Positions 4,814-48,232 of a DNA stretch of 64,000 bases are shown here, one piece after another (the first letter of the stretch is position 1; each line of letters opens with the position of its first letter). The stretch is from Octopus vulgaris (taxonomy: Eukaryota). Where the stretch lies: assembly GCA_951406725.2 (NCBI GenBank), contig OX597822.1:36828001-36892000 (forward strand), given 5' to 3'. Below the pieces are notes generated by a model. The model had not been told where the DNA came from, did no database searches, and saw nothing but the letters and a program-made list of their open reading frames with translations. The translations under genes and the position numbers were made by a program.

Positions 4814-6919
4814 TCACTGCAATATTGTCTCAACATCCAATTCTTTCTTCTTTTTCCTTGCTGACTTTAATCTTGAAGCAGTTTTTGGTCGTCCTAATTT
4901 ATTACCTTTAGCAGAGTTTACTCTCATACTCTGAGTAGCTCCTTCTTTTGTGTAGGCAAGATAGACTCCAGATATGTCAGATTCATTAAAGCTAGCTGAT
5001 AGACTTTCAGTATGCGGTGAGTGTTTGCGCATATTGTTCCCTGTGTATGCAACACATTTTAGCTGCCATTCCCCAATATCGTCATTCCAGTGAACATAGT
5101 GCTCCAACATTTTCTGGAATTCCATAGGAATGAAATTGTCAATAATCAGCATTTGAAGCTTCAATTCTCGGCTGAGCTGGCGAACATTTTCAAGCAGACC
5201 TTCCATTTCTCTCTGGTGGTCTTTTTGTACATCAGCAATTTCAATCTTAGCTTGTGTGTACATAGACCAGCATTTCTTGAGTTTTTTGGTTTTACCAATA
5301 ACTTCTTCCTGCAAAGTTGAATATTTTTCTTCTATATCCAGTCTTTCTTGTTCTTTTTCTTCTAAAGCTTTCCGTAGTTCTTCTTCTCTCTTCTTCCTTT
5401 CTTCTAACTCACAGGCACTTTCTTCCAATAGTCTTTCTTGTTCTTCAGCCTTTTCTAAAAGATTCTCACCACCAACAATAATTTTCTTCTCTATCACAGC
5501 TAACTTTTGTGCCAATTGGTGTTGTTCTTCTAAATACTTCTTCATCTCAGACTCTTTCTCATCAAGATTATATTTTATTTTCTTTCTCTCCTCTTCAGCT
5601 AAATCTTTCTTTTCTTCCAGTATTTTGCGATCATCTTCAATCTTAGACTGAATTTCTGCCATTTTTTCTTTAGAAATTTTATGTGTTTTTTTCACTTTTT
5701 TATTGCTGCTTTTCCCATCTTTCTCAATAATTTCTTCATTTCCATCAGACCCATCATTATCATTATTAAACTCACCTTCTTCAAGTTGCCGTTTTAGTTC
5801 TTTAATTTCTTCCTGAAATTGCCGAAGTAAAGCATCTTTTGGATCTTCATTAACCTTAGCTTTGTTCTTTATACATTTTGCTCTGTTGGCATACCTCAGA
5901 GTGCTAATGGTCTCATCATAGTTATAATCTGCTGGACCAATATTGGCAATCATTACTGTTTTTGAGTTACCTCCAAGGGAATCTTGCAACAAACGTGTCA
6001 GTTTGGAATTTCTGTAAGGAATATGGCTACTTTTCCCATCAACTAAGGCAGAGATCACATTGCCAAGGGTAGAAAGAGATAAATTAATTTTTGTAGCTTC
6101 TTTAAGTCGTTGACCGGTGGCACCTGTTTTTGCTTGACGTTCAGAGCCTGCTAAGTCAACAAGATGAAGTTTCCCCATTCGGACATGTTGTTTTCCATCA
6201 ATACCTTTCTCACTACATTCAATGGTCAAGGAGAAGATAGCATGTGATCGTGAACTGTGAGCATTCATATTAGTAGCACCCACAACCCGATTTTTGTTCC
6301 CTAGCGTCATGATTCGATCCATATCATCGGCATTATTTACAACAAAAGCAGAAAGGTCCTTCACGTAAACACCAATGTCAGGCCTCTCTTTAACCTCAAG
6401 CCGTTGCATTTGGTCCTTACCAAGCAAATCACGTACTTCTTCATTATAAATCTCTAGATAAGATACTCTTACCAAGAACTGAGTTTCACCCTCAGCTTTA
6501 GCAATGGCACCAAATATATGAGCAAATGAATTAGGAATAATACCCCGCTTTTCTGCCACTACCCTGAGGCCCTCCATTGTGAATGTTTTGCCTGTTCCAG
6601 TCTGGCCGTATGCAAAAATTGTTCCATTGTAACCAGCAAGAACTGAATCAATAATAGGGCGAGCAACCTCATTATAAACATCAACCTGTTTGCAATCATG
6701 TCCAAATACAGTATCAAATGTATAAACTTTCATAGGTTCACCATGGCCAGGGGTAGGGTTTTCTACTGAGACTGTTCCTCTTACAGAATCGACAAAAACT
6801 GTCTTCTTACATTCTGAAGAAATTTCTTTTTCATTGAGTGGCCGACAGCGAACAGCTACCTTAACATTATCACTGCTGTCACCACCAACCTTACCTTCCA
6901 CTAACTTATTCACTTTCAT
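4814..6919 (-). CDS. KIF3A: Kinesin-2 motor subunit KIF3A (KRP85/KLP64D-like), 701 aa, single coding exon
   Basis: N-terminal motor domain with VRCRP, P-loop [25 protein letters not shown] and [20 protein letters not shown], followed by a coiled-coil stalk. The tail [15 protein letters not shown]...VYLAYT...RPKTA...ETILQ is KIF3A-like. An in-frame TAA lies 27 nt upstream of the ATG. Confidence 0.95.
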
Positions 6920-7313
6920 ATTTCTGCTTCTATATCTTATTTCTTATTGTTCATAGCTCTCGTCATAAAATCAGCTGTCATGGAATGTAACATTGACAGT
7001 TACTGTGTTGTAACATCAATTGTTACTGTGGTATAACATCAGTTGTGACAAATGTGTAACATCAGTTGTAATTGTGGTGTAATATGAACATTCACTGTGT
7101 TGTAACATCAATTGTTGCTGTGGTATAACATCAGTTGTGACAAATGTGTAACATCAGTTGTAACTGTGGTGTAATATGAACATTCACTGTGTTGTAACAT
7201 CAACTGTGACTGTGTTGTAACATCAGCTGTTACTACTGTTGTGATTATCGAATGACATCAGCTCTTTCTGTGTTCTGTGATGTAAGGTCTGCTACTTTCT
7301 CCAGTGAAACAAT
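6920..7313 (-). other. KIF3A: Putative 5'UTR part of the KIF3A coding exon
   Basis: Strong splice acceptor on the minus strand (tttcattttatttcttttattacag|att, AG at 7315-7314). No pyrimidine-rich acceptor is seen closer to the ATG. Confidence 0.6.
6985..7240. repeat. Minisatellite of ~23-nt units (tgtgttgtaacatca...) with a 92-bp higher-order period
   Basis: ctgtgttgtaacatcaa recurs at 7003, 7095 and 7187. Confidence 0.9.
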
Positions 7314-8209
7314 CTGTAATAAAAGAAATAAAATGAAATTGGATAAGATACAATATTTAACAACAACAATAACAACACCAAATGCTTAAAGACCATGTTT
7401 TCTGCTAAGCCTTGCAGACCCCCTTTGACAGTCTCTTCCATTTTACCCTACTTAATACATCCCTTCTCCAAAGCCTTCGCCTGGTTTCTTTCTCCATCAA
7501 CTAACTATTTATATATTCTTTTATGTGTCTATTCTTTTACAGGTTTGTATCACTGGGCTATGGCCGTGCTGGGGCACAGCTTCAATGATTTAGGTCATCA
7601 TATTGACTCCAGTACCTATTTCAGTCTTTGAACTATTATGGAACTGATAAATTATATCACAAATTCACCTCTGATTTTGCTGGCTAACAAAGAAAACCCT
7701 TATGTTGCTGCTTGACAGGCTAGAAATAGCAGCCAAATTTCCTGCATATCACACAATACTGTCTGAAAAAAGTAAGATATATATCTGTATACATGACTCA
7801 TATTTAAGAATTTAAAAGATTTTATCACATCCATCCAGTTCCAGAAGCTATTTTAGGGTAAAGATAAACCAACTGACAAGATAAGTCCCTCTAAATTCCT
7901 TCATATATCTAATGTGTAGGGAGGTGGAATAAACATTTAACAAGATAGTGACACATACATACATACTAATATTGTCAATGCTGTCATCATCATCATCAAT
8001 GTCAATATCTAAGTGAATGTAGGTATATGTTAGTTTACCTCTAAATAAGTAACTGCTGTGAAACATGGAAACATCACAAGTGATGAAGTAAAAGATATGT
8101 GGGGATACTATCAGATGGTGATACCATTTATCTGGTGATATCATTACCTTGTGATACCATCAGGTGATGATACCATTTACTTGGTGATTTCATTAAAATA
8201 ATGAATGAA

Positions 8210-9383
8210 ATGGTACATGGATACATGAGTTCCTTACAAATAGAACTCAAACAGTCACTGTGAATGGAACCCATTCAACACCATCACCTGTGACCAGCAG
8301 TGTTCCTCAGGGTACAGTACTCGGCCCAATCCTGTTTCTCACCCTCATCTCTGACATAGATGAAGATACAACCAGCAACGTCTCATCCTTTGCTGATGAC
8401 ACCAGGGTCATGAGACAAATCAAAGACGAGGTGGATACAGGGGCCTTACAAAAGGACCTGACCACCATATATAAATGGCAGGAAACAAACAACATGTTGT
8501 TCAATGATAAGAAGTTTGAACTAATTCGCTACGGAACAGATCAAGATCTGAAAAATACAACAAACTACAGAAACCCATCAGGACAACAAATAATGGAAAA
8601 ACAGTATGTGAAAGATTTAGGCATCCACATGGGAACCAGCCTAAAATTCAGAGAACACCTTGACTCAGTCTGTCTTACTGCAAGAAAGTACAGCGGGTGG
8701 ATCTTGCGCACCTCCAAATCAAGAGATACCTCAACAATGAAAACCCTCTGGAACAGTATGATACTTCCGAGGATTGACTACTGTTCTCAGTTGTGGTCAC
8801 CAACAACAAAGGGCCAACTATCTAAGATGGAATCGCTCCAAAGAAATTTTACCTCATACTTCTCAGAAACAAGGGACCTGGACTATTGGCAAAGACTCAA
8901 AACCTTGAAGATGTACTCAATAGAAAGAAGATTTGAGTAATACCGAATTATATACATTTGGAAAATGATAGAGCAAAAGGTGCCAAACTTTGGTATCAAA
9001 ACCTACCACTCACTGCACCACAGAAGACGCTGCCAGCTACCACCAATCAACAAAAAGGCTGGCCAGGCAGCAAAAACCCTGCGAGAGTCAAGTCTGTTGG
9101 TTCGAGGAGCACAACTATTCAACTCCATTCCGGTACATGTCAGAAATCTATCAGGATGCAGTGTGGAATCATTCAAATTGCAGCTGGATAGATACTTAAG
9201 CACCATTAGAGATGAACCCCATCTCCCAGGATATACACAACGAGCACAAACTGACTCAAACTCGCTCCTACACATGTCAAAATTAAACAGAGAATACAAC
9301 CTGGCAACCACACCAGACTCTAAGGGTGGAGTCTTTGACTTGGCCTGAGCATGGACTCAAATTCAAATGAAATGAAATGAAAT
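8210..9383 (+). mobile_element. 5'-truncated CR1/L2-group non-LTR retrotransposon (RT C-terminal half) with (AAATG)n tail
   Basis: Motifs WIHEFLTNRTQTV, VPQGTVLGPILF, FADD, KDLG and DYCSQLWSP. A single in-frame TAA (8938-8940) separates two ORFs. An aaatg repeat tail lies at 9366-9383. Confidence 0.9.
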
Positions 9384-9459
9384 AACAAATGCCAGTCAAG
9401 CAACAAAATGCAATATACTGTGTGTTAAGAACATTAAAACAATTGACATCCACCATTCA

Positions 9460-9680
9460 TTCTGTACCATGATAATACAGTACTATATAGTGATAGTACA
9501 GTACTATATGATGACAGTGCAGTACTATATAGTGGTAGTACAGTACTATACAGTACAGCACTGTATAGTGATACAACAGTAATATACAATAATAGTACAG
9601 TACTATATAGTGACAGTACTGTATTATACTGTAATAGTATAGAACAGGAATAGTATAGTACTACACAGTGATACCACAAT
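9460..9680. repeat. Degenerate minisatellite (tacagtactatatagtgatag-like)
   Basis: Repeated tacagtactata units are visible directly. Confidence 0.75.
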
Positions 9681-10716
9681 ATAAAGGTGGTACAGTTGTA
9701 TACTAAAGAAATAGTTTAGTAAAATACAGTAATAGTAAAACAAAAACTAGTGAGTAATTTAATTTAATGACACTAAAAAATAAATTAGTTGGTTATAAAA
9801 AAAATTTGATGAAATTTTAAATTTAATTAATATTTGTTATTAGCAATGGAAGCAGTATTACTTCAAATTAGGGATCTTTTCTGTTGCTGTCAGTTACTGA
9901 AATTTTAAATTTCAATAGTTCACTGTTATATGCAGAAAATCGTAATCATCAATTTCAGGAATGTGAAAGTAGGCCCTCCACAAGTCACTTAAAATTAAGG
10001 TTCCATGAAGAATTGACTGGTGTCTGCATTCCTCTAGCATGTTGTGATTCTGACATGGCACTGCATAAAGAAAATCATGTCTGGTCTTGCGACACACTCT
10101 TTCAAATACCTATTGTTCAGGTTGTATTTATGTCTGTAGCTTAAGCAGACTATACACTGGTTTGTTATGGAAACAGGCACTAATATGTCCATGGCTTTCA
10201 ATTGGCTAAAATTACCCAGAATTTTCAAACTTTAAAAGCTATTAACTTTTTATTTATCAATTTATGGCAAAAATGAATTCCATTTCCATAATTAGCACAC
10301 AAAACTACATCAGTACACCAAATCTGAAAACAATTGAAACAAGATTTAGAAAACTAACTACTGCGACAGCAACTGAAAAGATACCACACTAGCAATCTAA
10401 ATATCACACTTAAAATATATATACTGTTGAAAGCCTTCCAAATTGTGTAATTCATTTTGAGAAAGCATCTCTTATAGATGCTGCTAAAAGAATTTTATTC
10501 AGCCTGTCAGCTAAATGCAACATCAGTGACCTTTCAATCACTGATTAACTATATTAGCCAGCAACCGATTTTTGCTTAGCATACAGTGCCAGTGGACCCT
10601 TGCTACTGATGAAGCTCAAAGAAGCAGAAATCCTGATTTCTCAATGCCATTGCCACTGCCATGCAATTTTCACTTGTTGCTGATATATTTCTGTGCTTTT
10701 TAACACTATTAGAAAT

Positions 10717-10796
<80 letters not shown>

Positions 10797-10917
10797 ACAC
10801 ACACACAATCATCATCGTCATCTATGAATGCATGTCCTATGCATTCAAGGCCCAGCTCTCACTACCATGTAACACTGCTGTTCATACACAAGCATTGTAC
10901 AATCTGCCTTTCTATGA

Positions 10918-10958
<41 letters not shown>

Positions 10959-11051
10959 GGGGGGGAGGAATTCACAAAAAAACAAAAGACGAAGAAAGGT
11001 GGTGTAGACAACAAACAGATGTATTAGTATAACGCTTGGGAAGTGAAAAAG

Positions 11052-11089
11052 TCTTTAACGTTTCGAGCCTATGCTCTTCCACAGAAAGA
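11052..11089 (-). ncRNA. Hammerhead-like motif with variant core (CUGUGGA), probably in a Penelope-LTR-like repeat
   Basis: Minus strand reads tcttt-CTGTGGA-a-gagc-atag-gctc-GAAA-cgtt-aaaga. Helix I and helix II pair, and helix III is the palindrome AACGTT. Confidence 0.5.
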
Positions 11090-11158
11090 AATAAGGAGAG
11101 AAAATAAAGAATGTGTAGTGGCTAGTGATCTATCATGGCGAATGCCGGACAGAAGGGT

Positions 11159-11201
<43 letters not shown>

Positions 11202-13545
11202 ATGTATATGTAATGTAATTGGCCATAGTCGCATATGGTCCCAGCTATGGTTTTAATTAGTATGTTATGGAAGAAACTCCAAGCACAAACCCTCACTGCC
11301 CTTGGGAAAGGAAAAAGCTAAGGGAGTCAACCTCAACAGCAAATCAAAGAGTGGGATCTCTCTGGTGGTTCACTGTCCTCTTTGACACCTTTCAAGCAAC
11401 TCCAGGGTAGATGGAGATCCCCGACTCTGTATGGCAATTCACTAAAGTGAAGCCCATTCCAATGTAAAACTGATCATCACAGCCATGTTAGCCCACTGAG
11501 ACAGACCTCCAAGTCTAAAGAGTGGGCTGTGATTGCACAGACTCATCGTCATCATCATCATCTCTGGTTTCCATGCTGGTGTGAGTCGGACAGTTTCACA
11601 GGAGCTGGTCAGTTGGAGAGCTGCATCAGGCTCTAATTGTCTGTTTTGACAAGGTTTCTACAGTTAGATGCCATTCCAAACACCAAAGATTTTACAGTGT
11701 ACAAGGTGTTTTTTTACATGGCACCAGCCAGGTGGCACAGGCGCTTTTCAGTCTGACACCAGCATAGGTGATTTTTATGTGGCACCAGCATGGGTGCTTT
11801 TTACATGATCCCCCAGCACTAGTGAGTCCACAAAGCAAGAGCTTCTCAGGTATGGCCATAAAGGACTGACTCTCATTTTAGAACCACTATGCACAATCAG
11901 GAAGAAAAACTTTGCAGTGTCAAGGATCATTTTACATATGCATTTGAGAGCATACATATATATATTATAGCTGCCACCGCCATCACTTTCCCTACAACTG
12001 CCATCTACCACTGCTTCTACAATTATCCTCACCATGGGTTAAAATAGAAAAATCTCTACTCTTGCAGCATGTTTGCTATCTCTAAAATTTCAAGCTTGTT
12101 CATCAACAAACAGGTTTTCTAGCTTATACAGACACTTTCTATTTGAAAACACACAGACGCATACACACGTTTTCTCTCTCCCTCTCTTATGCAAATGCCT
12201 TAATAAATTACCTGCACCTGTCATTTATTAATAACAGGAAAAGATATGAATAACCTTCTCCTCCTCTACACACTAGCAGACTGACACAGCTGATAGGAAG
12301 ACTAGAAAGTACACAGCTGTTGCCCTCTCTCACCACCACACTAACACTATTAAGGCTTCCTTTTGTGCCACACATTAAGGTAGAGAGTGAAGGCCTATAT
12401 TTCAAAAACTACCCTTATAACTACTACTACTACTACAGCCGCCACCACCACCACCACAACTGCTGCTGCTGCTATTGCACATTATATACCAGCCTTTACT
12501 ACATCAGTATAACATAAAACAATTCTTAACACCTTTGTATATGATGACTCAGTGTACATCATAAAACTGTCCTTACTACTAATATACATCATAAGATAAT
12601 CTATACAAATACTCTACATCATAAAAGCAACTGTCACTACTGTGAGTCATATGACAGATAGAAAACTTCTATATAGTTCTTTGATCTGTTAGGCATAGCA
12701 ACCAAAATCCTGCTCAATTCACACTCTTGCCGTCTTAAATAAGAAAAGGATAGATTCAATATTATAGGCCTACATACTAAATTTACAAGATGGGTATGGC
12801 TGGAATGTTTTTGATCATAGGTCTGTTCAACTGGGATTAATCTTCAGCTAAGTAAAAAATATCAACAACATCAGACAATCCATACTACCAAAGCATATCA
12901 CATCTCTCCAACATACTTATTCCTTCCTGGAATGACCAGATCGCTACTTTCATACTTAAGTACTATCTACACATACATAGCATATATATATACACACATA
13001 GAATCACGCGCGTGCACACACACACACATAAACAAGCACACAGATGCAGAGTTTCTCACACTCACACCATTCTATGTAATGTTGCAGTGAAGATCCCTAA
13101 ATATAGCCAGAGTTGCTCAGTTGTAGTAATGCATTCCAGCAGACTACAGGTGTGTTAATTGTGTTAATGGTATGATGGTAGAGAGAGGGAGAGAGAGGGA
13201 AAGAGAGGGAGCAGTATTGATTACACCTCAATGGCAGGTTTACTGCAAACATCAGCATCAATAAACTGTATGTATATATGTATGTATGTATGTAAGTATG
13301 CATGATGTATGTATGTGTGTGTGTGTGTGTGTCTGCATCATCCTCATCATCATTTAATGTACATTTTCCATGCTGGCATGGGTTGGACGCATGTGTGTGT
13401 CGATATATATATATATGTATGTATGTGTGTGTATGTGTGAATTTATGTATGATTTATGTTTATATGTATGTATGTATGTATGTATGTGTGCATGTATGCA
13501 TGTGTGTGTACGTATGCATGTATGTATGCATATATATGTAGTTGC

Positions 13546-13599
<54 letters not shown>

Positions 13600-14153
13600 T
13601 CATATTTACCTCTTCATAAAAACAGAAACAGGCACACAGAACAAGTTTGAAACTAACTTCTCACACTAACAACACACACACACATATACACACACACATA
13701 TATACACACACACACACATACATAGCAACACAAATAAGGTTAGGTAAACACACTTGTATTCGTGTACAGACATATACATACAGGTAATGGCATTCAGGTA
13801 ATAGACAAGTATACTTAAATATCTACATGCATCGGCACAGAACTACATACATAGACCCATAAAGATGCATAGACATATAACTACAGTTACAGACATAAAT
13901 ACATAACCATATACTTATATAAATAACTACAGTACCAATGCAGCATGAGTTATGGAAAAATATGCATAGAGAGTCTCTTATCCATAAGTTTAATGAATAC
14001 ATATTTGGTCTCACTGTGGAAGCTGACAGGAAAGATGAAAGTCAGTCCAATTTCTATTCAAAGTTGCTAAAATCCCTGTGGTTTAATCATGGGCGTCTGC
14101 CTTCAGAAAACTAAATATATGTTTATCAAACATTATATTGTTTGTATATCTAT

Positions 14154-14238
<85 letters not shown>

Positions 14239-14287
14239 AGTATATTGAGTTCTACACCAGGTTATTAGCATATATTGCAATGCCTAA

Positions 14288-14318
<31 letters not shown>

Positions 14319-14433
14319 CATCATCATCGTTTAACGTCCGCTTTCCATGCTAGTATGGGTTGAATGGTTCGACTGGGGTCTGGGAAGCCAGGAGGCTGCA
14401 CCAGGCCCAGTCTGATCTGGCAATGTTTCTACA

Positions 14434-14518
14434 GAGATTCTGATGAAACTGTAATGTGTTATTCAAGCACTCAACTATGGTGTTTGCCACATGTTATAGT
14501 GGAAACAGCTGTAACCTA
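14434..14518 (+). ncRNA. Minimal type I hammerhead-like motif
   Basis: CTGATGA at 14440; 12-bp helix II actgtaatgtgt/acatgttatagt (with G-U pairs); GAAAC-AGCT-GTA gives a palindromic loop and GUA triplet. Helix I pairs poorly. Confidence 0.5.
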
Positions 14519-14635
14519 ATGAAGTTCATAAGATAATTGTTTGCTCCTTTCTCATCTCTTTTCTTATATATATATATATATATATAATTGCAGCGTGGAA
14601 GATGTTTATAAATATATATATATATATATATATAT

Positions 14636-14905
14636 AATTGCAGCATGGAAGGTGTTTATAAGCCATTTAAGAAACACACAAAATCCTTTAGATTCACTTC
14701 AGCATTTAATTTTAATTTGTCAAAATATTTTCGTCACTTTGAGACCACGACCTGTTCACTGACAGCATGGAATTTTGTCAGTGAACAGTTCGTGGTTTCA
14801 AAGCGATGAAAATATTTTGACAAATTAAAATTAAATGCTGAAGTGAATCTAAAGGATTTTGTGTGTTTCTTAAATGGCTTATAAACATCTTCCACACTGC
14901 AATTG
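14636..14905. mobile_element. Foldback/palindromic element (copy 1), ~125-bp arms
   Basis: Inverted arms flank the spacer agcatggaatttt. The same element occurs at 45882-46149. Confidence 0.85.
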
Positions 14906-15169
14906 TTTTCTTTCCAGCACAGGATCTTAGATCAGGTCACTTGGTATGCAATACATCTCCATAATACATATATATAAATATATATATATACACACATATA
15001 TATATTATATATAATCACACACACACACACACACACACACCACCACCACACCACACCCATGCCACACCACACACACCACAACACACCACACCACACACTC
15101 ACACCACAACACACCACACAACGCACTACACCACACACATATATACATAAACAGTCTTGTTGCACCCAC

Positions 15170-15780
15170 TAGTGCCTTTAAAAATCTTACAGTCAATATT
15201 AGTGATAAGATATCTAATCTCTGCCCCTCCTCTAAGGAAATATTCAATACAGTAGCCCCAAAAGTGGCTTCAAAGAGAAGATGCTTAATACTCCTACCAT
15301 AAAAAGAATGAAGCCTAATAATAGACCTAAGAAAAACTATATGGTTTCTTCTCCACCTTCTGTAACCCCAGCCTCTTTTTTTTTCCTTGAATGTTAAGAC
15401 AAAACATAGTTAGAAAATTCCTAGCCTTGATAGAAAAGCATTTCCCAGATATCCATAGTATAAGAATATTTTTAATAGACATTCTGCAGAAGTTTCTTGC
15501 AGCTGCTACCTCAACATGAAGAACATTATTACATGTAAATCACACCAGGTACCCATCCTAAGATATAACTGCAGAAACCCAGATATGTGCCCACTCAACT
15601 AGGCATGCATGGTTTCCTCAGTTTTATTTATATATGAAGTTACAGCCACCTCAGTTCTACCAAATAACAAAACTGTAAAGAAAAAAATATACTGAACAAT
15701 GTGAAAGTGATTTTACAAAAAGACATGCCAACCACCAGTCTTTATTCTGAGATGGGATAAGAAGAAAATTGTTGCATGAC
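15170..15780 (+). mobile_element. Decayed Penelope-like element fragment (RT C-terminus / linker toward GIY-YIG)
   Basis: Broken frames give RKTIWF..PP, KFLALIEKHFP, IFNRHSAEVSCSCYLNMKNII and NCRNPDMCPLN, typical of the PLE region upstream of the endonuclease. Confidence 0.7.
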
Positions 15781-15789
15781 AATACAAAT

Positions 15790-16024
15790 CTCGTCCTTTC
15801 CAACTATCACCTCTTTAAATCACTCAAACATCCTTTAAGAGGCTGTTGATATGCTATGGATGAAGAGGTGCAGGAAATGGTGCATAAATGGCTGCACAAC
15901 TGGCTAAAACTTTTTTCTCTGATGGAATAAGCAAGCTTGTAGACCACTGGAAGGAGTGCATTGAAAAGCACTGTTTTAATAAATTACAGAAACAGGAGTG
16001 CATATAATTCTTGACCTACTCTTG

Positions 16025-16027
<3 letters not shown>
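15790..16027 (+). mobile_element. Mariner transposase 3' fragment with right end
   Basis: YHLFKSLKHPLRG...DEEVQEMVHKWL...FFSDGISKLVDHWKECIEK, followed by a TIR-like end and a TA run. Confidence 0.75.
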
Positions 16028-16068
<41 letters not shown>

Positions 16069-16289
16069 GCATGATCTTCTAACGTTGGGCCTCACAGAGG
16101 CAATGACAAAAGACCGAGACCTCTGGAGATATGCTGTGACTGAGAAGACCCGGCAAATAAAGTGAGTTCACAGCTGTAACCTACACCAGTGTCGCATAAC
16201 CAGCCCACTCAAAAGTACCTTGGATCGTAGGGTGTCATGCCATGCTTGAGGAGACCTATTATTCGCTCACCTCGAAGTAAGGTAAATAA

Positions 16290-16592
16290 AATCAAAATAA
16301 GCAACAGGATATCAAGAAGTGATGCAGTACGACTGTTTCAAGCGGCTCCATTTATTTTTCAAGTGGCTCCATAATTTTTCTCAAATACTTTAACAGAGCA
16401 TCTCCTTGCTCTGTTAAAGTATTTGAGAAAAAATATATTAATGTGTCCAACTGATTAAAATCCTATTTATTTGTGCAACTGATGATAGCGCTGCATTTAA
16501 ATCGATGTAATGATTGTATTGTTCAATTAAATGGAGCTGCTTGAAACAGTCATACTGCATCACTTCTTGATATCCTGTGGCTTATTTTGATT
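16290..16592. mobile_element. MITE-like foldback element with ~65-bp terminal inverted repeats and an internal perfect 26-bp hairpin
   Basis: aatcaaaataagcaacaggatatcaagaagtgatgcagta... is mirrored at 16527-16592. Hairpin arms lie at 16375-16400 and 16407-16432. Confidence 0.8.
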
Positions 16593-16596
16593 ATAT

Positions 16597-16632
<36 letters not shown>

Positions 16633-17683
16633 CTGCTGGTGACAAAGGGCCTCTCGCTCAGAGTAAAAAGTAAAAGGTAGACTGTATGATGCATGTGTAT
16701 GAACAGCCATGCTACATGGCAGTGAAACATGGGCCATGACTGCTGAAGACATGAATAAGCTTGCAAGGAATGAAGCCAGTATGCTCCGCTGGATTTGTAA
16801 TGTCAGTATGCATACTCGACAGAGTGTAAGTACCTTGAGAGAAAAGTTAGACCTAAGAAGCATCAGATGTGGTGTGCAAGAGAGGTGACTGCACTGGTAT
16901 GGTCATGTGGCAAGAACGGATGAGGACAGCTGTGTCAAAAAGTGCCACACCCTAGCAGTTGAGGGAACCTGTGGAAGAGGTAGACCCAGGAAGACCTAGG
17001 ATGAGGTGGTGAAGCACGACCTATGAACATTAGGCCTCAACAAGGCAATGACTAGTGACCAAGACCTTTGGAAATATGCTGTGCTTGAGAAGACATGGCA
17101 AGCCAAGTAAGACCATAACCCATGGCCTATGCCAGGGGTGTAACCAGCCCACTTATGCATACCTTTCCTTCATTGGGCACTAAAATCTACTTGCGAAGAC
17201 CTATTGGGGCAAGTGAAATCAAAATCAAAATCAAAGACTGGCATCCGTGCTAGTGGAGTGCTAAGAGCACCATCTGAGCATGATCATTGCGAGAGCAGCT
17301 GACTGGCTTCCGTGCTGGTTGTACATATAAAGCACCATTCGAGCGTGATCATTACCAGTGTCACCTTACTGGCACGTGAAAAGATATCCGAGTGAGGCCG
17401 TTGCCAGTGCTGCTGGACTGGCTCCTGTGCAGGTGGCACGTAAAAAACACCATTTGAGCGTGGCCGTTGCCAGTACTGCCTGACTGGACCTCATGCCGGT
17501 GGAACGTAAAAGCACCCACTACAATCTTTGAGTGATTGGCATTAGGAAGGGCATCCAGCTGTAGAAACTCTGCTAGATCAGATTGGAGCCTGGTGCAGCC
17601 ATCTGGTTCGCCAGTCCTCAGTCAAATCATCCAAACCATGCCAGCAAGGAAAGCAGACATTAAACGATGATGATGATGATGAT
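16633..17683 (+). mobile_element. 5'-truncated RTE-clade LINE (RT C-terminus, 3'UTR, (GAT)n tail)
   Basis: LLVTKGLSLRVK..GRLYDACV..AMLHGSETWA..RNEASMLRWICNV..LHWYGHV..GRGRPRK, ending in gcagacattaaacgatgatgat. Confidence 0.85.
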
Positions 17684-17818
17684 ATATGCCAACTTATATA
17701 TACATTTCTGTGTTATTCAGGGCACCAACTTTGATGTCAAAATGATTTGATCTGTGGAAACATGTAGCGATGTATTAAATATTTATAAATTCCATCCTAG
17801 TATTATTGTTATTATATA

Positions 17819-18707
17819 TAAGGTCTGATCAATAAGTATCCGGACTATTGCCATAGTTAAAGCACACAGAGTGAAGCTGCTAGGCAAAGATTGACCTTGA
17901 ACTCTGCTGTACATGCACACTAAGTTTTAATGTTCTACCTCACCTCCGCTCGTTACAGCAGTGCTTGGAAGGAAGATGTGTAGCATGTGATCATCACATT
18001 GACCATGACAGGGGAAGTTGTCATGGTGATACCTGCTCAGACATCTATGCAAAGTTGCAGAAAGTGTATGGAGAGGAGTGTATGAGCTGCACACAAGTGT
18101 ATGAGTGGTTCAGATGTTTCCAAGATGGCAGAAAAAATGTCTATATTGACGAACGTTCTGGGAGACCTGCAACCAGTAGAACTAAGAAAAGCATCACAGA
18201 TGTGTGTGCAGCTGTGAGGGTGAGCTGTTAAACCACCATCTGTGAGTTATCAGAGAGTTGTGCAGATTAGTTACAGTTCAGTTCAGTCCATTATTACTGA
18301 AGATTTGGGTATGAGACACAGGTCTGCCAAGTTTGTGCCAAGACTACTTTCAGCTGACCAAAAAGACACTGAGGTTTCAGTTGCACAAGATCTCCTTGAT
18401 TGAGTCAAGAATGATGAAAACTTTTTTGAAAACTTTGCATAAGCTTCTGAGCAGGTATTGCCAATCTTTTGGCAAAATTTAATGCAGATTCTCTGCTCAA
18501 CTTTTTCTGTCATGGTCAATGCAACAATCACACGATACACACATTACTTCCAAGCACTGCTGTAAACGGCGAAAGTGGGCTAGAATGATAAAACTTAGAA
18601 CACACGCACAACAGAGTTCAAGGTCAATTTATGCTAAGCAGCTTCACTCTGCATGCTTTAGCTTCGTTACAATGGCAACAGTCCGGATACTTATTGATCA
18701 ACTTACG
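17819..18707. mobile_element. Non-autonomous mariner derivative built from two inverted 5' ends
   Basis: TIR gatcaataagtatccggact at both ends with TA flanks. The plus strand encodes KVYGEECMS..QVYEWF..FQDGR..ERSGRP..AKFVPRLL. The minus-strand right arm encodes the N-terminus MTEKVEQRICIKFC. Confidence 0.85.
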
Positions 18708-18750
<43 letters not shown>

Positions 18751-18942
18751 CTGAAACAGGATATAGCATAAATATGTGTGTGTGTGTGTCATTGTATGTA
18801 TGTAATTTGTACATAAGATATACATATACAGCATAGCAATATACAACACAAGTGTGCATTGCATACTTTAATGTTTTCACAAGTAAGCCAAACATATAAA
18901 CATCTATACATAAACACATACACACACATGCATATATATATA

Positions 18943-18986
<44 letters not shown>

Positions 18987-19343
18987 AGCTGTCCTTCTGC
19001 TATTGTCTCAGGTGGCTGACCAATACCTTGTGCATGGAATTGGTAGATATTAACTGTAGAAATCATTCTGTGTGTGTATTTTAGCAGGTGTGTGTCTGTT
19101 TATGTTCTCCCATTGTCTTAACATCCATGCACTGCATAAAAACATTGTGAATGTCTATGTCATAGTGACTTTGTTCACATATCCAGCCACTAAGTGGCTC
19201 ATTGTCTGAAGGGCTAAGAAAAATAGTATCCTACTTGGAAAAAGGTGAAGATTGATAACAGGAAGAGCATACTACCAAAGAGAAACTGTCTCTATAAGTG
19301 TTATCTGAACTATACCATCGTGGGAGAGTGGACATCAAAATGA

Positions 19344-19375
<32 letters not shown>

Positions 19376-19736
19376 TTACATGTTTGCATTCTGTTACAAG
19401 TTGAAGCTTCTTGAATCATTACTCAGAGTTTCACACTAGTGGTTATTCAAACAATTCAAGTTGTCTGGCAAAAGAGAATATCTAAACAAAAATATTCATA
19501 AACATGAAAATATGATTAGTTATTGAGATTTCATTGGTTGCTAAAAACTGTTAGAAAAATATGTCATTGAGTCATCTCTTAAATTGTTAGGTGCAGGCGT
19601 GGCTGTGTGGTAAGAAGCTTGCTTACCAACCACATGGTTCCGTGGCACCTTGTGCAAGTGTCCTCTACTATAGCATTGGGCTGACAAAAGCCTTGTGAGT
19701 GGATTTTGGTAGACAGAAACTGAAAGAAGCCTGTCA

Positions 19737-19802
<66 letters not shown>

Positions 19803-20069
19803 ATCATCATCGTTTATCGTCTGTTTTCCATGCTAGCATGGGTTGGATGGTTCGACTGGGGTCTGGGAAGCCAGGAGGCTGCACCAGGCTCCAGTCTGAT
19901 CTGGCAGTGTTTCTACAGCAGGATACCCTTCCTAATGCCAACTACTCTGTGAGTGTAGTAGGTGCTTTTTACATGCCACCAGCACAGAGGCCAGAGTGGG
20001 GTTGCAAACTGCCACGATCAGTTGGTGCTTTTTACGTGTGTGTACTGTATGTGGCCAATTAACATGAGC

Positions 20070-20820
20070 CCTTGTAATCTCTTTTATTATAAGATCCAAC
20101 ATCTTGATCCCATGCCTTGCTAGCTCTTCTTCTTCCACAGGTTCTATCCATTTTGAGTACTAAGCACATCGTCTATACATGTCACATACTTGTACTGATG
20201 CAGTTTTCCCTCCTCTTATACACATCTTTCTGTCAGTTCATTTGTACTCTATTGCACAGACACAAGAACATTACACATCCAGTGAAGCATGCTTGCTTCG
20301 TTTCTTTTTAGTCTTTGAAAATCATATGCATTCAAGTCCCACATCCCACCACAATGTAACATCACACTTTGCATACAAGCATCATGCAATTTACCTTTTA
20401 CTCTGAGGGCAAGACCCTTTGTTGCTAATAGAATTTTTTCCAACTTGTTCTTACTCAGGCAACTACACTTTCAAGATAACCATAACCCCTGCTAATTAGG
20501 TCACTTAGTTAAAAGAAGCTATTGAATACTTCTAGGGAACCATCTGGGCATTTGAGAGAATCTGTTTTTTGGGAGTTTAATGCTTTTATGATGGTTAACT
20601 TTGCTATTAGCCTATTGGTCATCTCACAACACCTCTTGTGCATCTACTGTTTACACTATGATGTTTCTACCAACTTCTTTTTTGCATACCCAGTACTACT
20701 GTGTCCCTGATGGCTGCAGGATCCTGTCTTTTTTTCTGATTGACATACTTCCACATTTGGAGTTTCTTCAACCAATCATCTACAAGGTCAACTGCTACAG
20801 GAGCTCTCATAGATAGCTAG
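20070..20820 (-). mobile_element. Decayed RTE-clade LINE fragment
   Basis: ORF 20249-20443 (LLATKGLALRVKGKLHDACMQSVMLH..RNEASMLHWMCNV) is homologous to the copy at 16633. Confidence 0.75.
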
Positions 20821-20949
20821 CCTTAAACTTCTTTATCATGGTTTAGAGAAATAGCCATAACAGAAGAGCACTGATGGCTCCTCTATAAGTGCACAAGAGA
20901 TGCAGTGGTTTCATAGGCAGGCTGACAGAGAAGAAAGACTTTGTATAAA

Positions 20950-21650
20950 ACTGATACATAGGACTAATTAGTGGTCAGAGCACCCACGAAATAAGTGCTT
21001 TCAAATGCTTAGAAGGTTCCTTAGAACTAGTTGATAGCCTCTGTTTCATAGGTAGCCAAATTAACATTGGGAACAAGTGTTCCAAGGGCAAAGATGCCAG
21101 TAAGAATCAGCTGGAAAAAAATTTAGGGAGCTACTACTGCTACTGGAAACAAGAGCATTTTTTTCTGCAGGTAACGTGTAGATTGTGTGATACTTGCGTA
21201 CAAAGTGTGCTGTTGATTAGTAGCAACAAAGCACAAAAGAACTGAGAGTAATAACAGGATATAAGAGGAAAGCTGAAGAGACAAGAGAGAAAACTGCACT
21301 GGTACAGACATGTGATGTATATGGAGGATGGCAATTTGGTATATAAGGAATTTAAGTGGAAGGACTATGTAGGACCTAAAAGGACATGAGAACAAGTGGA
21401 GAAAGTTGATCTCGAAAGGCATAACCTCATATAGGAGACAACAAAGGATCACAACAGATGGTAAGATGCAGTATTACAAAAGGCCCATTCAAACCAAGTA
21501 TGGAAATGCAGACGTAAAATAATGAAGATGATCTCTTATATAAAATCTCTTCTGTCTGTCTGTGGCTTCTAGGATCTCGGGCATCCTCCATCCAATTGCA
21601 CTCAAATTTGATATGTAGGGCATGTATAAGTCTTGAAAAAATTACAAAAA
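20950..21650 (-). mobile_element. Possible highly decayed LINE endonuclease-region fragment
   Basis: Weak resemblance only (SSSLFYVCISILGLN ~ N-I-R-G-L start of an APE domain), with many frame breaks. Confidence 0.3.
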
Positions 21651-23047
21651 TCGATTCCAGGTGAGAATGCAATACTAAAGCCGTGGGAAATCATTTATCT
21701 TTGGAAGAGACAAAAAGTCTATCTTTATTTCTTCTTTTGCTGGTGTCTCAAATTTAGGTTAAATTAGTGTTTCTCAAAGGGGAGGCCTATGGGACAGTCG
21801 GACAAGTTGTTTTGAGAAAATTTGGTTTAAATGTTTGATGGAGTGGGGGGGGGGCGTTTTGCTCGTGTGTATATATATATAACAGAAAATGTATATGAAC
21901 GTGTCTATGTATGTATGTGAGTGTTGGGGTATATAATAACAGAACAATATAGTATCCATACCTGTAATGATTTTAGAACTCTCCCCCCACACAAATGAAC
22001 CAAACAACCTCTCATGCACAACGCCTGCTTTTCCTCCACCATGCCATGTCTTTTTCTTGTCCTCCTCTTGTCAACTGTAGCATGACAATCAACTTCTTTT
22101 ATAGTTGCAGGCTGCCTCTCCATCCCCTGTTCTGCTCCACATACAATCTTGTAATAGTTCTACTCACTTCTACTTACCTTGTGCCTTGAGATAGATAATG
22201 GACACCTAATCTCCATTATCTATCTCTTGCAGTTCCAACTTATCATTTTCTTTCTCCTCTACTAAACGTGAGTAATCTACAAGAACCTGCTCTGTCCCCC
22301 ACCAATCTCTGACATACTTTAAGCCCTCATCCCTTAGCATAAAGCCAATCCCCTCCCTCAGAGTTCATAGTCTTGCGAGCTGCATGACAACCTCACTTGT
22401 GCAAGTAGCCACCCAAAAAAGCTGCAAAGTGGTTAACTTTAGGTAGGGCATCCAGTCATTTAAAATCAGGCCAAAGCGGACAAAAGAACACAATGCAATC
22501 GTTGGACCCATCAGAACCTGCCCAGCCCATGCCAGCATGGAACATGGACTTTAAATGAAGATGATGATGACAGCAACATACTGTTATTGATGTTTAGCCC
22601 AAATACTACCCAGTACGGACCGATGATCAAAGGTATTCCGGCACTGGTCATCGCCATCCTGTACTTGTCTTGAGCACTGGATATCAGGGACTATTATGCA
22701 ATGCACCCCGCATTTTTTAAGACCTTGAACAATTATTTGAAGGAAATTTGGCTGCTTTCTTTAACAAAGAAAATGATCATGTACTTGCTTAGCTCCAGAT
22801 CAACTCTGATTAGGGAGAATCATAACTAACTACCAATATATCTTCAATCTTAGTGAAATACATTTTAGTGCTGATATATTAGTATGTAGCGTGGCACAAG
22901 GGTACCTTTACATTTATCTGTACAAGTGTATCTGTTATGTTGCATTTAAACAATAGAGTAACGTGGGTAGGGATGAATTACAAACAATAATCCTGCTTGG
23001 CCACAATTCAACGATTAAAACCAATAAAAAGAACGTACATACACACA

Positions 23048-23107
<60 letters not shown>

Positions 23108-23300
23108 CTAGCCAGGTACACAGGCAAACCAGTGCTAATATAAAACATTATATTATTTTAAGGTTAATGCGAATATCAATGCATATAAAAATAGTTATAT
23201 TTCTATAAAGTTTTAACATTCGTAGCGGAAAATATCGGAAACTGAAAACAAGAGAAAGTAGCAAGCTTGAAATGATGAAGATGACAACGATAGTTCATAC

Positions 23301-23500
23301 CTGTGTTGCTATGACAGTAACAACACTGTCAGTAGATCTATTGCACTAAATTACTGATCGATTTCACTACCTTGATTTCTCTTCTCTGTTGATCCAAACG
23401 ATATTTCTGTTAAGTGTTCGTCTGTCTTTCACCTATCGGTCAGACAATCTGGCCAACCGCAGAAATCAACTGTTGTCAACCGCTTCTCCGTGTATCACAG
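23301..23500 (-). other. KIF3A: Putative non-coding first exon of KIF3A
   Basis: Consensus donor CAG|GTATGA at 23301/23300, with an alternative AAG|GTAGTG at 23371. Unique, CpG-enriched sequence lies directly downstream of promoter motifs. The 5' end is approximate. Confidence 0.5.
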
Positions 23501-23585
23501 CAACGGCATAACAAGCTTTCAATACAAGCTTCCGGTATGTCTCAATGACGTCATTTCTCACGGAAATTGCCGGAAAGAAGCGAAA
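23500..23585 (-). promoter_or_regulatory. Putative KIF3A proximal promoter (CRE plus ETS-like sites)
   Basis: Palindromic AATGACGTCATT at 23544-23555, CCGGAAG (minus strand) at 23529-23535, further CGGAA cores, and local CpG enrichment. Confidence 0.55.
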
Positions 23586-24029: not shown

Positions 24030-24043
24030 GTTGCCATAACAAC
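24030..24043. promoter_or_regulatory. RFX X-box upstream of KIF3A
   Basis: GTTGCC-AT-AACAAC fits the GTHNYY-AT-RRNAAC consensus and lies about 0.5 kb upstream of the putative TSS of a ciliary motor gene. Confidence 0.55.
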
Positions 24044-24799
24044 TGGCAAGTAGGGATTGTGTAACCATATTGTATTTCAGAACAATTCACAGATTATTTT
24101 GGTGAGGTTTCCCTCTTTTCTTTTATCTCTTTTTTACTTTTTCTCTTTTTTTTCTTTTTCTCTTTTTCATTCACAGCATATATGTGGTGTGAAAAAGTCA
24201 AACATCAGTCTTCCAACTACTGTATACTTTTCTATGTGATTAGATCATATTTATGAAGACAAGCTGAGTTGGAAACAATTTAGTGCTAGGTAGATCAAAA
24301 GTAGGTTTATTATAAACACAAGTGACTGTTATTTTATGATGGAAGATCCAGACCTTGACTGGATAGCTCCGCAGAGATTTTCAATTACAACACTCCTTTA
24401 CTCACACTTAGCTTGGCAATGGAGAATATGAAAAAAAGGTTTTCTTAATATCTCAATGAAAGTAATACAGCTTTGAACCATTCATCTTCCACAATTTAGA
24501 TCAAATATTTCTGTAACAAAGAAGATTTTTTTTTTTATTCATTAAACATTTAAATAATTATTTCACCTGTAATTTCTGCTCATGTTGTATCATGGAAATG
24601 TGTTGAGTTTCTTTCTCATTAGAAACAGTAGGAATCTTCGTACAAGCTTTACTGTTGCATCTTCTGCCAGGAATGTTCTGCGAGTTGTGTTAATGCTATT
24701 TTCAGTCTTTCAAAATGTTTTCTCTCTCACAAACAACAATTTCAGATTTAAAAATCCTTGATTATTTGAAATCAAAAGATTTGATATAGACATGAAATA

Positions 24800-25640
24800 A
24801 TCTGAAGCAATGTAGAATAATATTTCTTAAAAGTTCAACCCCAATGATTGTTTTTGCACTTCCTGACACCAAGAACATACTTTGCCAGGGGAATGTTACT
24901 GCCACCTCTTCCAGAAATATGAATCTAGTCTTTAGATTCACTTGTATCTCCTGGTCTGAGGTCTGATACAAAACAGAAAATTGGTCTCCCACAGCTACTT
25001 TCATCTTAGGAACCTTATCACCTTCCTTAAGGAATCTGATACCCTTGGGTAGTGAAGGCTGCTGCTTGTGGGCCTTAACATTCTGTAGGTCTTTCTGTCT
25101 GGCAATTTCTACAAGAACTTTCTCATACCTCCATTTCTATTGGCTTTCTCCCAGTACCCTGTGCATCTAGTTAAAATGTGGTTTGGAATGTGCAAGATGT
25201 TCCATGTTGCTTGTAGGACAGATTCTCCCTTTTGCACAATATTTGAAGGTTATTTGGGGTTGGTAAAGGGTCAACAATGGCACACATGAGGAAGGATAAT
25301 TTTCTCTGGTCAGTGTTCTAGAGTTACCTTCAGGACAGTGGTCACTCAATGCCTGATCCTACTGTCTATGGTGGGCAAGCCCTACCACTTTCACATGGTG
25401 ATCTTATCTTCCTTAGTTGAATCACACATCTTTTATATTATGAGTTCTCTTTTACTCCTCACATTTGGATCTTGGATCTCTCCAACAATCTCCTGATGCT
25501 TCCAGTATGTTTCTGCTTCCTTCACAACTTCCTATGGTTTCCACTTCTGCTGACCTTTATGATCTTATTGACATGTCTGACTCTCTTATCCACAGATAGT
25601 AGCAATGTACTAACTGCTCTTGCTTTTGTGGTTTTGAAGT
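24800..25640 (-). mobile_element. Decayed HERO/NeSL-type (restriction-like endonuclease) non-LTR retrotransposon fragment
   Basis: Broken frames give KWKP.EVVKEAETYWKHQEIVG, FLMCAIVDPLPTPNNL, WRYEKVLVEIA, FLKEG and VNLKTRFIF..VSGSAKTIIGVEL, in the order expected for the RLE-clade C-terminus. Confidence 0.65.
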
Positions 25641-31562: not shown

Positions 31563-47587
<16,025 letters not shown>

Positions 47588-47649
47588 TCTGGAAGCAGGT
47601 GCTCTGAAAAATAGAAATATCATGATTATTATTATTATTATTATTATTA

Positions 47650-48232
47650 TTACACCCCTGGCATAGGCATATGCCAGGGGTGTAACCAGCCCACTTATAC
47701 ATACCTTTCCTTCATTGGACACTAAACTCTGCTTTCAAATAACTTTTGAGGCAAGTGAAAACAAATTCAAATTCGATGATTGGCATCCATGCTAGTGGAG
47801 CGCTAAGAGCACCATCCAAGCATGATCGTTGCCCAGAATAGCTAACTGGCTTCCATGCCGGTGGCACGTAAAAAGCACCATTCGAGCATGATTGTTACCA
47901 GCGTCGCCTTACTGGCACTTGTGCCAGTGGCATCTGAAAAACATTCAAGCAAGGTCGTTGCCAGTGCAGCTGGACTGGCTCCTGTGCAGGAGGCACGTAA
48001 AAAACACCACTTGTGCATGGCCGTTGCCAGTACAGCCTGACTGGCCTTCGTGCCGGTGGCACATAAAAGCACCCACTACACTCTCAGAGTGGTTGGCATT
48101 AGGAAGGGCATCCAGCTGTAGAAACTCTGCCAGATCAGATTGGAGCCTGGTGCAGCCATCTGGTTCATCAGTCCTCAGTCAAATCATCCAACCCATGCTA
48201 GCATGGAAAGCGGACGTTAAACGATGATGATG

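What the first reader, a model, noticed from the sequence alone, without database searches (positions are those of the whole stretch)
6937..7258. Chain of six stop-start-coupled uORFs leading into the KIF3A start codon
Seen: the minus-strand leader is tiled without gaps by uORFs at 7258-7223, 7223-7200, 7200-7108, 7108-7016, 7016-6978 and 6981-6937. The first four junctions are UGAUG overlaps and the last is an AUGA overlap. The final stop is 17 nt before the KIF3A AUG. uORFs 3 and 4 are near-identical 30-aa peptides (MLQHSECSYYTT.TTDVTHLSQLMLYHSNN). Known: UGAUG/AUGA overlaps mark coupled termination-reinitiation in caliciviruses and influenza B, and uORFs usually repress translation. Inference: this could be a minisatellite-built reinitiation relay or translational rheostat whose strength changes with repeat number. 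Caveat: a TGATG-containing repeat with 23/92-nt periods can produce such chains by chance, although uORF1 and uORF6 lie at or beyond the array edges.
Basis: partly seen in the sequence, partly recalled or inferred. Interest (0 to 1): 0.72.

Follow-up and report, generated by a model that had tools for sequence, protein, structure and literature searches.

The report
Minisatellite-made uORF chain in octopus kinesin
A short DNA repeat in the spliced front end of an octopus kinesin gene (KIF3A) creates fifteen weak false start codons whose back-to-back arrangement follows from the repeat's length, so it likely just dampens protein output a little rather than acting as a designed ribosome relay.

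Summary
The six chained uORFs exist exactly as described. The leader is spliced: contigs from six probable RNA runs break at an acceptor at 7314 and, where read, join an exon 16 kb upstream, while two genomic-type contigs run on. The chain is a by-product of a 23-nt TGATG minisatellite. Since 23 is 2 modulo 3, each unit stops on the next start. The leader holds 15 uAUGs in three merging chains. 85% of unit-order shuffles give chains of six or more, and an unrelated minisatellite in a random 600-kb sample also gives six. There is no TURBS core (UGGGA) and no notable structure, and the last uORF is not coupled to KIF3A (17-nt gap). On an Octopus Kozak matrix all 15 uAUGs score below the genomic median, while the KIF3A AUG is at the 95th percentile. 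A related lineage carries an array 69 nt shorter. Best reading: a tolerated, length-variable uORF cluster crossed by leaky scanning and ordinary reinitiation, probably lowering output of one of two KIF3A paralogs. A true relay is unlikely (about 5%). Translation itself is untested.

The parts
4814..6919 (-). KIF3A coding sequence, single exon, 701 aa. One of two KIF3A paralogs in this genome whose coding regions lack introns.
   Evidence: Pfam Kinesin E=2.8e-124; 98% identical to O. bimaculoides and 92% to Argonauta KIF3A; paralog on C2
6920..7313 (-). Untranslated 394-nt part of exon 2, holding 15 uAUGs
   Evidence: Probable-RNA contigs cover it and break at 7317; AUG list
6976..7228 (-). 23-nt minisatellite of about 11 units, 8 with TGATG. 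It includes a recent 92-nt (4-unit) duplication whose copies differ at 3 of 92 sites. A degenerate copy lies at 7263-7241.
   Evidence: TRF periods 23/46/92; unit tables
6937..7258 (-).
7108..7183 (-).
7016..7091 (-).
6937..6993 (-). Last uORF frame with four in-frame AUGs (6993, 6981, 6966, 6954), stopping 17 nt before the main AUG; inferred main inhibitory element
7034..7102 (.). 69 nt (three units) absent from the haplotype in runs X11, X15, X16 and X17
   Evidence: Joint 7033>7103 with only 8 ambiguous letters, in both genomic-type and spliced contigs
7314..23300 (-). Intron of 15,987 nt in the 5' leader, GT...AG, with a strong polypyrimidine tract (pyrimidine fraction 0.83)
   Evidence: Loose end at 7317 matches once at 23305-23334; junction
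23301..23545 (-). Non-coding exon 1. Its 3' end is shown by 30 matched letters; its 5' extent is inferred from contig overhangs of 63-240 nt, and one run has 587 nt.

Best explanation
A 23-nt minisatellite containing TGATG sits in the spliced 5' leader of an octopus KIF3A paralog and, because its period is 2 modulo 3, automatically forms stop-start-overlapping uORFs; ribosomes likely reach KIF3A by leaky scanning past these poor-context AUGs plus ordinary downstream reinitiation, which would damp output modestly. Shown: the repeat, the splicing, the 15 uAUGs, their poor context, the arithmetic origin of the coupling, a shorter array in a related lineage, and a conserved intact protein. Inferred: that the uAUGs are mostly skipped; that ribosomes ending a uORF do not restart on the overlapped AUG because they lack initiator tRNA; that the last uORF frame (stop 17 nt before KIF3A) is the main sink; and that array length shifts output by less than twofold.
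For: All five chain junction distances are 2 mod 3. 16,984 of 20,000 unit-order shuffles give chains of six or more, so the native order is not optimised. A chain from uORF1 still reaches the last stop in 51 of 60 whole-unit deletions and 43 of 45 duplications. In simulations, 43% of TGATG-containing 23-nt repeats gave chains of five or more, against 0.25% at period 21. In 600 kb of random genome, an unrelated 37-nt minisatellite (L041) gave a six-link chain, and 13.9% of all ATGs are stop-start coupled. With the O. bimaculoides Kozak matrix (PMC7889888 supplementary file 11), all 15 uAUGs fall at the 1st-47th percentile of genomic ATGs and the main AUG at the 95th. There is no UGGGA, the fold z-score is +0.84, and Rfam gives no match. 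TGATG is no better kept across units than neighbouring pentamers. Octopus annotation holds 140,116 uAUGs in 13,547 genes, O/E 0.857 (PMC7889888 supplementary file 6), so uAUG-rich leaders are common. Reinitiation after short uORFs needs distance to rebind eIF2-TC (PMC5972666 sections 5 and 16).
Against: There is no ribosome profiling or reporter data, so translation of any uORF is untested. The poor Kozak scores are partly built in, because a TGA overlap forces T and G at -2 and -1. The best-kept core of the unit includes the ATG. None of 6 listed single-letter variants hits an ATG or overlap, though the chance of that is 0.35. The -69 haplotype keeps a six-link chain if its unlisted differing letters spare the motifs. 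The two flanking junctions (35 nt each) are not forced by the 23-nt period; their joint chance is roughly 0.05 (inference). Fifteen uAUGs is more than composition gives (P=0.0008) and has been tolerated in front of a conserved gene. No orthologous leader outside the closest relatives could be obtained.
Confidence: 0.72

Rival explanations
1. The uORF cluster is a selected translational repressor (a rheostat working through uAUG number, not through coupling). It keeps this paralog low or restricts it to conditions such as eIF2-alpha phosphorylation, high eIF1, or germ-cell stages.
For: 15 uAUGs against 6.4 expected. A second KIF3A paralog could buffer dosage. The array is retained, with different length, in a related lineage. 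A toy scanning model gives 4-34% output relative to a leader with no uAUG (parameters assumed).
Against: Contexts are uniformly poor. The same model gives only 1.0-1.8-fold differences between alleles. uAUGs are only weakly depleted in octopus leaders. There are no tissue or translation data.
Confidence: 0.13
2. The leader isoform with the array is largely bypassed or acts at DNA level. A shorter transcript from an internal start or a cryptic acceptor at 6976-6975 makes most of the protein, and the repeat may be a cluster of transcription-factor sites.
For: The array carries 7 Myb-type YAACKG and 11 E-box CANNTG sites (motifs recalled; copies not independent), and a weak acceptor at 6976 has pyrimidine fraction 0.61. 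Two O. bimaculoides accessions share one protein sequence, which suggests UTR isoforms.
Against: No laid contig shows a joint or loose end at 6976 or near the AUG; X17 had 1 and X6 had 5 contigs laid, all listed. Contigs drop rare forms and cannot show start sites. Exon 1 has promoter-like motifs of its own.
Confidence: 0.1
3. A true termination-reinitiation relay hands ribosomes from each stop to the overlapping AUG along the repeat and delivers them to KIF3A.
For: Gapless coupling from 7258 to 6937. The 17-nt gap lies within the 20-nt range quoted for TURBS systems (PMC10275272 passage). TURBS-free coupling has been reported for some cellular mRNAs (PMC5972666 section 16). The -69 allele keeps the chain on paper.
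Against: No UGGGA. No structure. The last link does not overlap KIF3A. Influenza B restarts about 10% of ribosomes per junction, so five links would pass almost nothing (inference). In the model, coupling barely changes output unless uAUG capture is high. The chain is reproduced by shuffles and by an unrelated repeat.
Confidence: 0.05

Closest known systems
Multi-uORF 5' leaders controlled by leaky scanning and short-uORF reinitiation (GCN4/ATF4 class and ordinary uORF mRNAs; PMC5972666, PMC7889888)
   Same: Several short AUG uORFs (5-30 codons) in poorer context than the main AUG; repression is expected.
   Different: The uORFs are generated by a minisatellite and overlap each other. There is no evidence of a spaced permissive/inhibitory design as in GCN4, and no demonstrated regulation.
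TURBS-dependent termination-reinitiation (caliciviruses, influenza B M1/BM2)
   Same: Stop and start codons overlap in the -1 phase (UGAUG, AUGA).
   Different: No UGGGA motif 1, no structured element, upstream ORFs are short rather than long, no protein-coding ORF starts at an overlap, and there are many junctions rather than one.
SLAMF1 long-isoform leader and GAD embryonic bicistronic mRNA (PMC5972666 section 16)
   Same: Cellular animal mRNAs with a UGAUG overlap; SLAMF1 has four uORFs, the last of 29 codons.
   Different: There the overlap is with the main or downstream ORF and a TURBS-like core is present. Here the overlaps are among uORFs only.
Mycobacterial interspersed repetitive units (MIRU-VNTR) and similar bacterial repeat-built relays (MIRU recalled; also named in earlier scan notes)
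   Same: Tandem units each carry a mini-ORF whose stop overlaps the next start, with variable copy number.
   Different: In bacteria the chain links an upstream gene to a downstream gene's start, where coupling is the normal mechanism. Here it lies in a scanned eukaryotic leader and stops short of the gene.
5' UTR VNTRs such as the TYMS 28-bp repeat (recalled)
   Same: A length-variable minisatellite in a 5' UTR that may tune expression.
   Different: This unit carries AUG and stop codons, and its effect is untested.

Membership tests
TURBS-dependent termination-reinitiation | Overlapping or close stop and start codons | tested here: met
   TGATG x4 and ATGA x1 in the chain; 17-nt gap to the main AUG
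TURBS-dependent termination-reinitiation | UGGGA motif 1 upstream of the stop-start site | tested here: not met
   No TGGGA or TGGG in 7313-6920 or in 23900-23301, and no GGGA in 7313-6920; motif defined in PMC5972666
TURBS-dependent termination-reinitiation | Structured element (motifs 2/2*) presenting motif 1 | tested here: not met
   MFE -72.7 against shuffle mean -77 kcal/mol, z +0.84; no Rfam match at E<=1
TURBS-dependent termination-reinitiation | Long upstream ORF coupled to a protein-coding downstream ORF | tested here: not met
   uORFs are 5-30 codons; the 30-aa peptides have no Pfam match; KIF3A does not overlap the last stop
TURBS-dependent termination-reinitiation | Downstream translation depends on termination at the overlap | not testable with these tools
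   Needs reporters or ribosome profiling
Multi-uORF leader (leaky scanning / short-uORF reinitiation) | AUG uORFs lie within the mature mRNA leader | tested here: met
   Contigs of six runs (five guessed to be RNA, one unlabelled) break at the acceptor; in X17 and X6 the loose end matches exon 1; X15 and X16 continue into the intron
Multi-uORF leader (leaky scanning / short-uORF reinitiation) | uAUG context weaker than the main AUG, permitting leaky scanning | tested here: met
   15 of 15 uAUGs below the genomic median; main AUG at the 95th percentile
Multi-uORF leader (leaky scanning / short-uORF reinitiation) | uORFs are translated and lower main-ORF output | not testable with these tools
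   No ribosome profiling or reporter data
5' UTR minisatellite VNTR | Tandem array with copy-number variation | tested here: met
   TRF; -69 nt haplotype in 4 of 8 laid runs from 3 studies; a -92 skip in X4 may be an assembly collapse
MIRU-like coupling repeat | Chain begins on an upstream gene's stop and ends on the downstream gene's start | tested here: not met
   No upstream gene on the transcript; the chain ends 17 nt short of KIF3A
KIF3A (kinesin-2) | Kinesin motor and full-length orthology to KIF3A | tested here: met
   Pfam PF00225; top named hits are KIF3A; tree

The most novel reading that the evidence does not exclude
A eukaryotic counterpart of MIRU-type relays: a minisatellite in an animal mRNA leader whose phase-locked stop-start overlaps keep ribosomes on the message without TURBS, so that repeat number sets kinesin-2 dosage and differs between octopus lineages.
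Probability: 0.05. Interest if true: 0.75.

Novelty: new member of a known kind. Interest (0 to 1): 0.25.

Why it matters
As read here it is an ordinary but clean case: a minisatellite seeds 15 uAUGs in the leader of a conserved gene and is tolerated, probably because the starts are poor. It also warns the scan that any TGATG-bearing repeat with a period of 2 mod 3 gives a perfect 'relay' and survives copy-number change by arithmetic, so such chains need a phase-specific test. The natural 11-unit and 8-unit haplotypes offer a ready reporter pair for asking whether animal ribosomes ever restart on an overlapped AUG after a short uORF without TURBS.

Tried and rejected
Region is intronic or upstream of the TSS: rejected. 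Conserved structured RNA or snoRNA-like element: no Rfam hit, no excess folding. Mobile or dispersed repeat family: the 701-nt search and one exact 18-nt unit pattern each hit only this locus in G000; this is weak evidence, since exact patterns miss diverged copies. Functional uORF peptides: no Pfam match; they are four repeat units read through one degenerate unit; no wider peptide search was run. N-terminal extension of KIF3A: an in-frame stop lies just upstream (ORF bounds 4814-6943), and orthologues start at the same Met. A-to-I editing removing uAUGs: no listed difference hits an AUG, though contigs drop rare variants. Distant orthologous leaders: the metagenome scan gave no close full-length orthologue (best full-length match 70%). 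No run is on record as RNA; RNA status is the tool's guess, backed here by the splice. The -92 skip in X4 has 39 ambiguous letters and was not counted as an allele. Literature: searches for octopus+KIF3A, repeat/uORF/VNTR, uORF stop-start chain and cephalopod+uORF listed no paper on this leader; only listings were seen, and subscription papers are not covered. Earlier scan notes: nothing for this locus.

Full report
Observation. The list is partial.

The gene. The ORF 6919-4814 is a single-exon, 701-aa kinesin. It is 98% identical to an O. bimaculoides KIF3A and 92% to an Argonauta KIF3A, and these start at the same Met, so the protein is under constraint and the start is right. The genome has a second KIF3A with an uninterrupted coding region on contig C2 (746 aa). 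A 20-protein tree puts the two in separate, fully supported clades, each with octopod members and a deeper sister pair; Sepia is named in the clade of the window's copy. I infer a duplication older than the octopod-decapod split. One exon of the spliced kinesin on C5 matches OSM-3 best; the spliced kinesin on C7 looks like KIF3B from recalled motifs. The C2 paralog has two ATGs in the 400 genomic nt before its start; its transcript structure was not determined.

Is the region in the mRNA? Eight runs were laid out of 24 listed. None is on record as RNA; five are guessed to be RNA and three are unlabelled. Contigs of six runs (X1, X3, X4, X6, X11, X17; six studies) cover the leader, stop matching at 7317 and continue with 63-587 other letters. 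In X17 and X6 the first 30 of those letters are identical and match one place, window 23305-23334. That places a CAG|GTATGA donor at 23301|23300 and an acceptor with a long pyrimidine tract at 7314|7313, an intron of 15,987 nt. Contigs of the two large runs X15 and X16 run straight on into the intron, as genomic DNA should. The array is therefore in a spliced leader. Contigs cannot give the start site, strand, level or rare isoforms.

Why the chain exists. The leader holds a 23-nt minisatellite of about 11 units; 8 contain TGATG, and a degenerate copy supplies the AUG at 7258. A stop overlapping the next AUG needs a start-to-start distance of 2 modulo 3, and 23 and 92 both satisfy this. The two 30-aa peptides arise because one unit per 92-nt block has lost TGATG, so the frame reads on four units to the next in-phase copy; the two blocks are a recent duplication differing at 3 of 92 sites.

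Controls. Shuffled letters never gave six links (0 of 20,000), but shuffling the order of the 11 units gave six or more in 16,984 of 20,000. Chains from uORF1 still reached the last stop in 51 of 60 whole-unit deletions and 43 of 45 duplications. Simulated 11-copy repeats containing TGATG gave chains of five or more in 43% of cases at period 23, 22% at period 22 and 0.25% at period 21; random units at period 23 did so in 6.5%. In 600 kb taken at fixed positions from 20 contigs, 13.9% of 24,780 ATGs were stop-start coupled, and one unrelated 37-nt minisatellite (L041; 60 arrays were examined) gave a six-link chain. Six-link chains are thus likely to number in the thousands genome-wide (extrapolation from one event). 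The two 35-nt flanking junctions are not forced by the period; I estimate their joint chance at about 0.05, after the fact.

Variation. Four of eight runs (X11, X15, X16, X17; three studies) share a haplotype lacking 69 nt, seen in both genomic-type and spliced contigs with only 8 ambiguous letters, and carrying many intron differences, so it is probably a related lineage. Treated as a plain deletion it keeps six links with 12 uAUGs, but about eight differing letters in these contigs were not listed, so this is approximate. A 92-nt skip in X4 may be an assembly collapse. None of six listed single-letter variants hits an AUG or overlap, which has a chance of 0.35. TGATG is no better kept across units (0.89) than neighbours such as TTACA (0.96). 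There is no sign of selection on the overlap, but power is low.

Mechanism. Viral stop-start coupling needs a TURBS with a UGGGA core, and influenza B uses UAAUG with about 10% restart (PMC5972666, passages; PMC10275272, passages). The leader has no UGGGA, folds less well than its shuffles (z +0.84) and matches no Rfam family. After a short uORF the 40S must travel to rebind initiator tRNA, and even a 1-nt overlap is thought to preclude ordinary reinitiation (PMC5972666, section 16 whole and part 1 of 5 of section 5). The chain also fails to couple to KIF3A itself. With the O. bimaculoides start-context matrix (PMC7889888, supplementary file 11, one part read), all 15 uAUGs score below the median of genomic ATGs (1st-47th percentile; all overlapped AUGs at or below the 25th) and the KIF3A AUG is at the 95th. 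Part of this is built in by the TG of the overlap. The same paper's table lists 140,116 uAUGs in 13,547 O. bimaculoides genes, O/E 0.857 (one row seen; counts span isoforms and annotation quality is unknown). A toy scanning model with assumed parameters gave 4-34% of unobstructed output, 1.0-1.8-fold differences between alleles, and little effect of coupling unless uAUG capture is high; it illustrates and does not test. I conclude that leaky scanning plus ordinary reinitiation, with modest repression, is most likely (0.72). The remaining weight goes to selected repression by uAUG number (0.13), a bypassing isoform or DNA-level role (0.10) and a true relay (0.05).

Comparison and novelty. It works like a multi-uORF leader with a VNTR. 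It fails three of four testable TURBS features and is not a member of that class. It resembles bacterial MIRU-type repeat relays in form (earlier scan notes, unchecked; MIRU itself recalled) but lacks their defining link from an upstream gene to the downstream start. Searches (listings only) showed no paper on this leader. Verdict: real, explained by the repeat, new member of a known kind; interest 0.25. What remains open is translation itself and the leader in more distant octopods, which could not be fetched.

Noticed in passing
window 4814-6919 and L003 (G000:C2:123.67 Mb): Both KIF3A genes in this genome have intron-free coding regions and form two old coleoid clades. No spliced KIF3A parent was evident among 50 matches, which suggests ancient retroposition with loss of the parent.
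   Followed up: partly
window 23305-23318 and 24030-24043: X-box-like (RFX) motifs at the end of exon 1 and upstream, fitting a ciliary gene; the pattern is recalled.
   Followed up: no
window 23529-23553: TGACGTCA palindrome and CCGGAAG near the inferred start of exon 1; the C2 paralog also has TGACGTCA about 310 nt upstream of its start.
   Followed up: no
window 23495-23509: Four-codon uORF in inferred exon 1, in poor context (9th percentile); its stop lies upstream of the exon junction.
   Followed up: partly
window 8209-9348 (+): LINE-type reverse transcriptase fragment in the leader intron, antisense to KIF3A, in two frames (Pfam RVT_1 E=2.8e-11).
   Followed up: partly
window 47429-47734 and 35476-35793 (-): Exon-like ORFs resembling isopentenyl-diphosphate isomerase (recalled motifs; no Pfam hit), upstream on the same strand. 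An unassigned coding-like ORF lies at 24762-25136.
   Followed up: no
L041:2510-3043 (G000:C6, about 10.003 Mb): 37-nt minisatellite giving a six-link stop-start chain with 74-nt steps; used as a control.
   Followed up: partly
window 9468-9661: Second minisatellite (period 21/42/78) in the intron; not examined.
   Followed up: no
window 6800-7690, run X16: A run labelled organism A carries the same -69 haplotype as runs labelled B and C, so the species labels do not track the haplotypes.
   Followed up: no
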